Source: Ramazzottius varieornatus
Lineage: Eukaryota > Animalia > Tardigrada
DNA: 64,000 nucleotides
Direction of reading: 5' to 3'
Assembly (NCBI GenBank): GCA_001949185.1
Contig: BDGG01000003.1
Coordinates: 4,585,092 to 4,649,091 of the forward strand
Part shown: in pieces, positions 21,961-24,900 of the stretch
Layout: each line of letters starts with the position of its first letter
Position numbering within the stretch: position 1 is the first letter of the stretch
Made by a program: the position numbers and the translations under genes
The notes under the pieces: generated by a model
What the model saw: only the letters and a program-made list of their open reading frames with translations
Database searches by the model: none
Told to the model about the DNA's origin: nothing

Positions 21961-24900
21961 ATGTCTAGCTTTTGCGTTGGTCCATACTGGGTAGGTGAAG
22001 TAGTCGGTATTACAAGTCGATTCTTCTCCCCGACGAAGGGTGCTTTTTCGTTTGCAGGATGTAAACCAAACGTGGTATACCGACGATCCCGACTTCACCG
22101 ACTGTTTCGAGAAGACTGTTCTCCGATGGATACCGAATATTTATTTATGGGCCATTTTGCCCCTTCAGCTTTACTCCGTTTTTCGTGTTCGGAAAATAAA
22201 GAAGCGCTGCTCCGAAAGACTCTTCTGGATCAAGCTGGTAATGTCCCGCCTAAATTTTGATATTCCGTAAAATCACAACCGAGCTAACATAACTTACATG
22301 ATAGCTGTTTTGAGTGGCGCACCCTTCCAGCCAAAAACAATATAACGCGCCACCACTTGGTACAGCCATCTTGTACGACCCATTTCGCCAGCTCCGAAAC
22401 ATATTCAACACTAAGTCTTACAGTAATATTTTATTTTAGGGTGTCCTGTTTGTAATCATAGCCACAATATGTGCAGAGCTGGGACACCACGGGAAGAACG
22501 TGCACGATTACATCCATTCTTACGGCAGCATATCGACCTTCCAGTTTCAGTATGTCGATATCGTCTCGTCTTCCATCCACTTGTTGACTTGCGTGAGTAA
22601 GCCAGCTTAACTTCCGGGACGAAATCCTCGAAAAAAAGAATGCTCGTTGGGTTGCAGGTTATGTACGCGGCGTACCTTGTGATGGACCAGATGAAAGGAA
22701 GGCCCTCGTCAGCACTGATGTTCTTCTTCTGGCTCATCGTAGCCATCACAGACGGTATAATCTTCCGCTCGCATATCAAAGTCGCACTGAATTACGTAAG
22801 CGTCTTCCGAGTATCCTGCTGAAGACTTAGCAGAAAGATAAGAATAAACATGATCCATCTTCACTATTTGGGTTCGTAGGGCGTATCCACACCGCGCGAT
22901 AGCTTTCTCTTCGTCGTTCGAGTTCTTTATTATCCCGCAGTACTTCTGCAGCTGTTCTTGTCCATCTGGAACGCCAAGTCACTTGACGAGGAGCCCGACC
23001 TGAAAAAGGTATAAATTTTGTCCGACGAATTGTTTATACTCGAGCAAGAAGATCTTCCAAGGAAAACCAATTTTTCCAACACTGAAGTGTTTTATTATTC
23101 CAGCATCGCCTTCCCGAAAATCATGTTCCATTTCTCAGCAGAGTTTTGTTCTGGTGGTTCAACAGGTAAATATTTCGATTTGCATAATTACAGTATACTA
23201 GGAAACTTTTTCCGATCAAGTTGCATGATTTTCGTTCATGAAGGTAAATTACTGACGGCATGTAATGCCAGCAAATGAATTCACGCGGAGCAGTTTCCCA
23301 AGTAGCGCATACCGTTCACCAATAACAATGGAAACGTGCGTCAGTTGGAGAAGCAGTCGCACTAGAGAATCCGTTTACCCAAGTGGCGCACGTTCTCAGG
23401 CAATAAAAATGGGAATATGCTTCACTTGAGATAACGTCTGGGTAATTCATCAACGACGTTCTAAGTTATATCAGAGTAAGAAAAATGAGAAAAAATTGGG
23501 AATTGGATGTTTTTATTTTTAGTCTAGTCTACACAGGATGGAAGAAGACGTTTCAGCCAGAACAGCTCTGGGACTTGAACCCGGAAGACAGAGCCCACAA
23601 TATAGCACAAGTTTTCGCTCGACAACGGGACAGGCGGAAGACAGATGCTTCCTTAGGATGGGCACTCGTCAGAGCCTTCTGGCCGGAACTAGTCTACAGT
23701 GCGTTGCTAAAGCTAGTCTACAATGCCATGCTCTTCCTGATTCCCAGAATCCTGAGCCTGCTCATCGGGTTTGTCAAGAACAAGGAAGAAGAAGTGTGGA
23801 AAGGCTACCTGTTTGCCATGCTTCTCTTCGTGGCTTCCGTCATCCAGACACTGTCTATCGGTCACTACTTTCATCGATGCAACAAACTGGGAATACGACT
23901 GCGGACAGCTGCTATGGGTGGCGTTTACAAAAAGGTATTTCGTCATTCGAGTTTTCCGCAGGGACAAAGATAATGTTTATTGAAAATCCAAATAAAAACG
24001 AAACTCAAAAAACTAGTCGAGTTCCGGGTGATGAACAAAATGTATGAAATAGCAGGAAAAATCTTTCAGATTTCAGTTTCGTGTTCCACAATCGTTCATC
24101 TCTAGAGTCCAGACAGGACGCGTGAGTTTGATCAGGGGGCAAATGTTATCCCGGTGACCAGAATGGATTTCCTGGCCGCCTGGGAACATTTGCCTCCTGT
24201 CGTTGCTCAAGCTTTGTCCACTGGCGAAACTTGCACAAGACCTGCAAAACGCGAAAACGAAACTAAGAACTAAGAAGCCCTAGAGAGCAGACGATGCGTT
24301 AGCCACCGCTGGCCGAGGATTCTCCATCACCGGAAAGATCCGGCTAGCAGGGAATACTCGTCCTTCGGTGACGCGCCAACTGATCGAGGAGGAAGTACTT
24401 GTTAGTCGGCAGAATATACCGCGTGTACAGGAGGCAAATGCAGTCCCGGTGACCAGAGAGGATTTTCTGGCCGCCTAGGTGCACTTGCCTCCCGTACTTC
24501 CGGCACGACAACGAGAACGTTGGTAGATTGAGCTAGTGTCTTGATTGAGGTGAGCGAGAAAGGACAATAAAGTTCATGCTGAGCCCGGTGACCGTTGTTT
24601 GCACAGGCCACCAAAGCCGCATGAACCTCTTGTCGCTTTCAGTGGAAGCTTCCAGGTCCGGTTGAGGTCCAAGAAGGCTCAGCAGGCAATGCGGTACCCG
24701 GAAGTTGTTGGTGAAGACTACTTCTCAGGAACGCACAGCCCGCTCAGCTCATCCAGAAAGTAAGTCGGAATTCAGACCTGAAAGAGAACAAAACACAGGC
24801 ATATGCTCCATAAAAGCACTACAGCGATCCTGGAACAAGGAAGCGGAACTACAGACAGCACAGGAGATGAAGACTGAAGGGAACCGGCGGAGCAAACTGA

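What the first reader, a model, noticed from the sequence alone, without database searches (positions are those of the whole stretch)
24133..24627. Antisense cluster of miR-35/36-seed pre-miRNA hairpins nested in the ABCC intron
Seen: the 1.34-kb intron (23935-25274) is far longer than its neighbours and contains three 58-73 nt hairpins. Read on the minus strand, each has UCACCGGG at the start of the 3' arm just after the loop; their 3' tails differ (AUAACAUUUGCC, ACUGCAUUUGCC, CUCAGCAUGAAC). Hairpin 3 pairs fully only on the minus strand. A weaker fourth candidate with a variant seed (UCACCGAAGG, ~24340-24410) lies between them. Known: CACCGGG is the seed of the protostome miR-36/nematode miR-35-41 family, whose mature products are 3p, clustered, and maternally loaded and essential for embryogenesis in C. 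elegans. Inference: a lineage-specific polycistronic miRNA locus transcribed antisense to the transporter.
Basis: partly seen in the sequence, partly recalled or inferred. Interest (0 to 1): 0.8.

Follow-up and report, generated by a model that had tools for sequence, protein, structure and literature searches.

The report
Tardigrade Mir-36 cluster inside transporter intron
An intron of a tardigrade transporter gene carries, on the opposite strand, three hairpins with the miR-35/36 seed and a fourth with an altered seed; they likely make microRNAs like those already sequenced in a related tardigrade, so this is a new member of a known family, not a new kind of gene.

Summary
Largely confirmed. 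The window is Ramazzottius varieornatus-like (host exon 99% identical to RvY_08092). A spliced contig confirms the ABCC intron 23935-25274. All 3 UCACCGGG sites in the window lie in it on the minus strand, each opening the 3' arm of a stable hairpin (z -6.2 to -8.3) with Drosha/Dicer geometry. A seed-variant hairpin it missed, 24677-24748, passes (z -5.3). The strongest outside evidence is the Hypsibius miRNA-seq table of Yoshida 2017: 13 expressed hairpins of this seed at four loci, one 3p arm matching hairpin 1 at 21 of 23 nt. There the 5p arm outnumbers the 3p arm in 8 of 13, so 'mature = 3p' is uncertain. A minus-strand TATA box and poly(A) signal bracket the cluster. One low-depth contig shows a plus-strand spliced RNA over two hairpins. 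No small-RNA reads of this species were examined; embryonic function is inferred. The scan noted a like layout before, in another family (sawfish miR-302/367). Verdict: new member of the Mir-36 family; modest interest.

The parts
23935..25274 (+). Host intron of the ABCC/MRP1-like gene (1340 nt, GT..AG)
   Evidence: Contig of X4 skips it; Hypsibius MRP1 aligns on both sides
24130..24201 (-). h1, predicted Mir-36 pre-miRNA: 5p 24195-24174, loop 16 nt, 3p 24157-24135 (seed CACCGGG)
   Evidence: z -6.4; duplex; UG at -14, CNNC at +15; 3p 21 of 23 nt identical to an expressed Hypsibius 3p (by eye)
24425..24497 (-). h2, predicted Mir-36 pre-miRNA: 5p 24490-24469, loop 16 nt, 3p 24452-24430 (seed CACCGGG); duplicate of h1
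   Evidence: z -8.3; 55 of 69 columns identical to h1; 2 compensatory and 4 one-sided pair-keeping changes; UG at -15, CNNC at +18
24562..24634 (-). h3, predicted Mir-36 pre-miRNA: 5p 24627-24606, loop 14 nt, 3p 24591-24569 (seed CACCGGG); diverged tail
   Evidence: z -6.2, strand-asymmetric; UG at -14, CNNC at +17
   Evidence: z -5.3; duplex; UG at -14, CNNC at +18; shares CCGGG in register with h1-h3; not detected by the model built from h1-h3
24300..24415 (.).
   Evidence: Minus 24335-24415 z +0.7, plus z -2.9; minus 24300-24378 z -3.3 with the seed-like word at the stem base; a UCACCGGA word on plus at 24327 is not in a pre-miRNA fold
24895..24934 (-). Putative core promoter of the cluster: TATAAAAG at 24934-24927, initiator-like TCAGTT at 24900-24895
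   Evidence: TATAAAA occurs 5 times in the window, 2 of them here on minus (24934, 25190); TATA-to-Inr spacing of 36 nt is longer than usual; inference only
23976..23981 (-). Putative poly(A) signal AATAAA, about 150 nt downstream of h1
   Evidence: weak on its own (43 in the window)
24760..24824 (+). Nested 65-nt GTAAGT..AG intron, spliced in a plus-strand RNA that spans at least 24583-24903 (antisense to h5 and most of h3)
   Evidence: One contig of X4, depth 2.8 against 17.3 for the host mRNA; no long ORF in the joined form
24106..24273 (+). Terminal exon of the public model RvY_08092, which runs through h1 on plus; likely a mis-prediction that splits the ABCC gene
   Evidence: Protein tail matches this stretch; the main X4 contig skips it

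Best explanation
The ABCC intron holds, on its antisense strand, four hairpins that are likely a small Mir-36-family microRNA gene: an independent Pol II unit, predicted to run from about 24900 to about 23960, that Drosha/Pasha and Dicer would cut into 22-23-nt duplexes. Shown in sequence: the hairpins, the seed, and h1/h2 as duplicates whose differences keep the stem. Inferred by homology to expressed Hypsibius hairpins: strand, cut sites and expression. The 3p arms of h1-h3 share the seed CACCGGG and would repress a common set of mRNAs through Argonaute; h5 would carry a drifted seed. By analogy with C. elegans miR-35-42 the cluster probably acts in oocytes and early embryos (untested). The 5p arms may also accumulate. 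The host transporter is most likely only a landing place: antisense hairpins cannot be cut from its pre-mRNA, and its main mRNA splices the intron out.
For: Seed clustering. Folding z -5.3 to -8.3. Predicted duplexes pair 18-21 nt of the 3p arm, with 14-16-nt loops. h1 vs h2: of 27 pairs, 20 are unchanged, 4 change on one side and keep pairing, 2 change on both sides, 1 breaks (two sequences, so not significant: 118 of 500 shuffles reach it). UG at -14 in 3 of 4 and at -15 in the fourth (P about 1e-3 and 4e-4 from intron background); CNNC at +16..18 in 3 of 4 (P about 0.017); the plus-strand mirror has UG at -14 in 1 of 4 and CNNC in 1 of 4 (cut sites are my predictions, +/-1 nt). These motifs and positions are described in PMC9976908 (passages). 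Hypsibius miRDeep2 table (PMC5531438 S1 Data): 13 distinct hairpins with this seed or CACCGGA among 507 loci, in clusters of 5, 5, 2 and 1, all 13 with reads from both arms; 12 of 13 3p arms start UCACCGG; 6 of 13 5p arms end in the same GGCC that the fold predicts for h1-h3. By eye: h1 3p matches scaffold0105_20336 at 21 of 23 nt, h2 3p at 20 of 23; the h1 precursor matches scaffold0047_11270 at 47 of 61 nt ungapped, loop 14 of 16. No copy elsewhere in the window. In the four runs laid at 90% likeness, foreign contigs stuck to the window's palindromic repeat but none to the hairpins (loose-end table).
Against: No small-RNA reads from this species were examined, so both-arm expression, 5' homogeneity and 2-nt offsets are untested at this locus. 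The only spliced RNA seen inside the intron is plus-strand. Rfam gave no mir-35/mir-36 match even at E up to 10. h1 folds equally on both strands. The model built from h1-h3 does not find h5, so h5's kinship rests on a short shared core, position and flanking motifs. In Hypsibius the 5p arm outnumbers the seed-bearing arm in 8 of 13 hairpins. No genome was held, so copy number genome-wide and target enrichment were not tested.
Confidence: 0.87

Rival explanations
1. Same origin, but the 5p arms are the main or co-equal products: tardigrade Mir-36 copies would have shifted arm use and gained new seeds (GGCAAAU, GGCAAGU and GUUCAUG here), with h5 adding a changed 3p seed. This is a variant within the best explanation, not exclusive of it.
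For: In Hypsibius 5p > 3p in 8 of 13 hairpins; summed counts about 22,900 vs 8,600 (my sum rows; identical arms are counted twice); the top row reads 11,758 vs 2,141. The 5p seeds differ between paralogs.
Against: One whole-animal library, with ligation bias and multi-mapping. It is the 3p seed that is conserved across both species. In C. elegans the family is cleared after embryogenesis in a seed-dependent way (bioRxiv 2021.11.19.469346, passages), which by itself could leave a 5p excess in older animals.
Confidence: 0.25
2. The hairpins are real Mir-36 duplicates but the locus is silent or decaying in this species, left in an intron by duplication.
For: The 24300-24415 stretch looks like a decayed copy; h5 has lost the family seed; the spliced RNA seen here is plus-strand.
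Against: Stems, seeds and flanking motifs are intact in four hairpins. The two listed strain differences in the X4 contig fall in a spacer (24653) and in the terminal loop of h5 (24710), not in a stem (of 3 differences in 177 nt, 2 are listed; too few to test).
Confidence: 0.08
3. The hairpins are fragments of a palindromic mobile element, or structure in a plus-strand exon or long non-coding RNA (as the RvY_08092 model and the spliced contig might suggest), and the seed match is incidental.
For: The window is full of a palindromic repeat that folds as well. RvY_08092 ends in an exon across h1. A plus-strand spliced contig spans h3/h5.
Against: No sequence likeness to that repeat: the h1-h3 model scores it 19 bits at best. 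G:U pairs favour minus for h2, h3 and h5. The joined plus-strand RNA has no long ORF. Homologues are processed as miRNAs from the seed strand in Hypsibius.
Confidence: 0.04

Closest known systems
Hypsibius exemplaris (dujardini) miR-35/36-seed clusters on scaffold0105, 0047, 0024 and 0160 (Yoshida et al. 2017, PMC5531438, S1 Data)
   Same: Seed, 3' tail, 5p end and loop sequence; hairpins clustered on one strand within about 1 kb; similar precursor length.
   Different: Listed in a supplementary table only (the main text has no 'mir-36' or 'mir-35'); 8 of the 13 were labelled by their 5p arm. Their genomic context is not given. None of the 507 rows has the UUCCGGG word in a comparable arm (2 hits in one unrelated row).
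C. elegans mir-35-41 cluster and mir-42 (Mir-36 family)
   Same: Same 3p seed (the Hypsibius table names cel-miR-35-3p as same-seed); tandem paralogs with differing tails on one primary transcript.
   Different: Here four hairpins lie antisense in a host intron and carry UG/CNNC motifs, which nematode pri-miRNAs lack (PMC9976908). Maternal and embryonic function is shown only in the worm.
Arthropod mir-3/mir-309/mir-3791 and flatworm miR-36
   Same: Grouped with C. elegans mir-36-42 (PMC4238352; PMC4987109); egg- and female-biased in schistosomes (PMC8128373); copy number varies among mites and ticks (bioRxiv 10.64898/2026.09.16.752239).
   Different: No sequence comparison with these was run.
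Vertebrate miR-302/367 cluster antisense in a LARP7 intron
   Same: Layout only: an embryo-type miRNA cluster on the opposite strand of a housekeeping gene's intron (lead from scan note e1-10283085; otherwise recalled).
   Different: Unrelated family and host; an analogy, not homology.

Membership tests
Canonical microRNA gene (MirGeneDB criteria, PMC12539619) | Imperfect hairpin with at least 16 paired nt between the arms | tested here: met
Canonical microRNA gene | Reads from both arms | not testable with these tools
   No small-RNA run of this species was laid; met by 13 of 13 Hypsibius homologues
Canonical microRNA gene | 5' end homogeneity | not testable with these tools
   Needs raw small-RNA reads; the Hypsibius table gives consensus ends only
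Canonical microRNA gene | 2-nt offsets at the Drosha and Dicer cuts | tested here: inconclusive
   Ends predicted by the 2-nt rule agree with Hypsibius read ends (6 of 13 share the GGCC 5p end) and put UG at -14/-15; not measured at this locus
Mir-36 (miR-35-42) family | Seed CACCGGG at nt 2-8 of the 3p arm | tested here: met
   h1, h2, h3
Mir-36 family, hairpin h5 | Seed CACCGGG at nt 2-8 of the 3p arm | tested here: not met
   Predicted seed UUCCGGG; h5 is filed as a probable diverged paralog, not as a seed-family member
Mir-36 family | Homology beyond the seed to expressed family members | tested here: met
   h1 3p 21 of 23, h2 3p 20 of 23, h1 precursor 47 of 61 against Hypsibius rows (by eye); weaker for h3
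Mir-36 family | Match to a curated family covariance model | tested here: inconclusive
   No mir-35/36 hit in Rfam 15 at E up to 10; the MirMachine Mir-36 model was not available
Mir-36 family | Maternal or early-embryo expression and function | not testable with these tools
   Known for C. elegans; not examined in tardigrades
MITE or palindromic repeat | Many dispersed copies with terminal inverted repeats | tested here: not met
   No other copy in the window; no foreign contigs on the hairpins in 4 runs; whole genome not searched

The most novel reading that the evidence does not exclude
Tardigrades have re-tooled the embryo-essential Mir-36 family: the expanded copies yield abundant 5p products with new, paralog-specific seeds, one Ramazzottius copy (h5) has a changed 3p seed, and a spliced sense RNA from the same intron is a perfect antisense partner of h5 and of most of h3 that could trigger their decay or block their processing, tying the cluster's timing to the transporter gene's activity.
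Probability: 0.1. Interest if true: 0.65.

Novelty: new member of a known kind. Interest (0 to 1): 0.3.

Why it matters
It gives exact coordinates for what is likely the embryonic Mir-36 cluster of a main tardigrade model species. My paper searches found no description of it, and the public gene model runs a spurious exon through it. It allows a direct test of whether the maternal role and seed-dependent clearance of miR-35-42 extend from nematodes to another ecdysozoan phylum. The 5p excess in the published Hypsibius table is an open question that one embryo library would settle.

Tried and rejected
Rfam at E up to 10 on 10 kb and on 681 nt: only sub-threshold hits to unrelated families (best mir-1898, 23.9 bits against a cut-off of 78). 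No whole genome held. Sequencing-run search: no RNA holder listed; 24 runs returned, 10 holding part of the intron, none on record as RNA and none labelled small-RNA; 4 of the 24 were laid. X1, X5 and X6 gave unspliced, low-depth contigs that cannot be told from DNA; parts without cover were not interpreted. Metagenome motif scan: 60 hits, 58 of them above 55% G+C, none looked like a tardigrade hairpin cluster on folding; treated as chance. The pair count used a mis-registered structure (my error) and was dropped; redone on h1/h2. The four-hairpin consensus fold was weak (-3.5 kcal/mol) because the sequence alignment puts the stems out of register. The promoter scan is bacterial and irrelevant. 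Synteny: Hypsibius MRP1 (OQV11389.1) lies on a 185,616-nt scaffold; scaffold0160, which carries one Mir-36 hairpin next to a miR-279-seed hairpin, is probably of about that size if scaffolds are numbered by length (scaffold0161 reaches at least 184,313), but no table placed the gene (file 27 unreadable), so this stays open. No miR-279-seed word lies in the intron. Seed-match sites in the window (3 besides the hairpins' own) are too few to judge. Campbell et al. 2011 is not held and may already report tardigrade miR-36 reads.

Full report
Setting. The exon before the intron is 99% identical to Ramazzottius varieornatus RvY_08092 and 61% to Hypsibius exemplaris MRP1. The Hypsibius protein aligns along 21961-30566 on plus, so the host is one ABCC/MRP1-like gene. 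A contig of run X4 (RNA by guess, but it skips five GT..AG host introns) joins across 23935-25274; the other four host introns it skips are 65-89 nt. The public model RvY_08092 instead ends in an exon at 24106-24273 that crosses hairpin 1 on plus; the main X4 contig skips that exon.

The observation. All 3 TCACCGGG matches in the window are in this intron, on minus, within 450 nt; the Poisson chance for the intron is about 3e-6, uncorrected for choosing the seed. The hairpins h1, h2 and h3 fold at z -6.4, -8.3 and -6.2. In an 80-nt scan of the whole window the ones that rank with them are mostly copies of a palindromic repeat (the output was cut and I saw its head and tail). h3 and h2 prefer minus; h1 is neutral. 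A better fourth hairpin, h5, lies at 24677-24748 (z -5.3), with predicted 3p seed UUCCGGG.

Anatomy. Starting the 3p arm at the U of UCACCGGG and applying 2-nt offsets gives 22-nt 5p arms ending in GGCC, loops of 16, 16 and 14 nt, and 19-21 paired bases for 23-nt 3p arms. With these ends UG falls at -14 in h1, h3 and h5 and at -15 in h2, and CNNC at +17 or +18 in h2, h3 and h5 and +15 in h1. Background probabilities are about 1e-3 and 0.017, and the plus-strand mirror shows each motif in 1 of 4. The ends are my predictions and carry +/-1 nt of freedom. PMC9976908 (passages) describes these motifs as shared from flies to humans and absent in C. elegans. h1 and h2 are duplicates (55 of 69 columns): 6 of the 7 pairs that differ stay paired, 2 by double changes (not significant with two sequences). 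On minus, TATAAAAG at 24934 and an initiator-like word at 24900 lie upstream of h5, and AATAAA at 23981 lies downstream of h1. A unit of about 0.95 kb therefore fits wholly inside the intron. That is inference from motifs.

Outside evidence. Yoshida et al. 2017 (PMC5531438; I read passages, and searched S1 Data and other supplements) list 507 Hypsibius miRDeep2 loci from 5,000 animals. Thirteen distinct hairpins (14 rows; row 6442 re-calls 6441 and was dropped) carry CACCGG(G/A) at the start of the 3' arm, in clusters of 5, 5, 2 and 1, and all 13 have reads from both arms. The other 'caccgg' hits in the table are unrelated rows. Compared by eye, the 3p arm of h1 matches that of scaffold0105_20336 at 21 of 23 nt and h2 at 20 of 23; the h1 precursor matches scaffold0047_11270 at 47 of 61 nt without gaps, 14 of 16 in the loop. 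This fixes family and strand far better than the seed alone. The family is scarce in that library (about 31,500 summed reads, some counted twice, against 3.27 million for miR-1). Arm switching is one reading. Seed-dependent clearance of the 3p strand after embryogenesis, as in C. elegans (bioRxiv 2021.11.19.469346, passages), is another; library bias is a third.

Against, and unexplained. No small-RNA reads of this species were examined. Rfam finds no mir-35/36 match. A model built from h1-h3 recovers only those three, their reverse strands and weak repeat hits, not h5. One X4 contig (depth 2.8) covers 24583-24759 joined to 24825-24903 across a GTAAGT..AG intron, which is a plus-strand splice, and it has no long ORF. 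The simplest account is a nested short intron cut from the host pre-mRNA; a separate antisense RNA or a deletion in that strain is not excluded. It neither shows nor excludes a minus-strand primary transcript.

Mechanism. Most likely (0.87) an independently transcribed Mir-36 cluster, built by tandem duplication, processed by Drosha and Dicer, and repressing CCCGGUG-bearing mRNAs, probably in oocytes and early embryos. Shown: hairpins, seeds, duplication, host splicing. Inferred: transcription, cuts, targets, stage.

Prior knowledge. The family spans nematodes, flatworms and arthropods (passages of PMC4238352, PMC4987109, PMC8128373 and bioRxiv 10.64898/2026.09.16.752239). Nine paper searches (listings only, except for the papers named here) showed no description of a Ramazzottius Mir-36 locus. 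The main texts of MirGeneDB 3.0 and MirMachine do not name tardigrades (word searches; 3 MirMachine supplements). A 2026 review calls tardigrade small-RNA knowledge sparse (PMC13389832, passages), and tardigrades have two to four Dicers (PMC12505628, passages). Annotation criteria are from PMC12539619 (passages). Campbell et al. 2011 could not be read, bioRxiv supplements are closed, and miRBase and MirGeneDB themselves were not queried, so an existing entry cannot be excluded. The scan had no notes on this genome or sequence; a word search returned two unreviewed notes on a sawfish miR-302/367 cluster, used only as an analogy.

Verdict. A real, well-supported, ordinary kind of gene: a new member of the Mir-36 family, with one corrected hairpin and two loose ends (5p excess, antisense spliced RNA). 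Interest 0.3.

Noticed in passing
window-wide, e.g. 18994-19075, 23294-23435, 26339-26486, 38266-38347: A roughly 60-100-nt palindromic repeat (core AAGTGGCGCAC...GTGCGCCACTT) has at least 24 diverged copies in 64 kb, often in pairs about 80 nt apart, and also draws foreign contigs from the runs laid; it looks like an old MITE-type family. None lies in the miRNA intron.
   Followed up: no
23457-23934: The main X4 host contig (depth 17.3) begins at 23457, upstream of the splice acceptor expected from homology, while contigs on upstream exons have depth 3.6-5.2. This may be an internal start giving a shorter ABCC form (ATG near 23485) or intron retention; contig depth is a poor measure.
   Followed up: no
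24106-24273: The public model RvY_08092 (GAU96681.1) truncates the ABCC gene with an exon running through hairpin 1; probably a split-gene annotation error.
   Followed up: partly
24583-24903: Plus-strand spliced RNA antisense to h5 and most of h3; one contig only.
   Followed up: partly
24483-24490 (minus): The predicted h2 5p arm starts AGGCAAG, like miR-31 (recalled); the most-read Hypsibius 5p arm was also given a miR-31 same-seed label in the table. Probably convergence.
   Followed up: no
Hypsibius scaffold0160:152574-152817 (paper table): A Mir-36 hairpin lies about 120 nt from a miR-279/miR-44-seed hairpin, echoing the nematode mir-42/mir-44 linkage (recalled); the scaffold's likely size is compatible with the one bearing the MRP1 orthologue, unproven.
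   Followed up: partly
55234-56158: A 925-nt run of N flanked by a 64-nt inverted repeat: an assembly gap.
   Followed up: no
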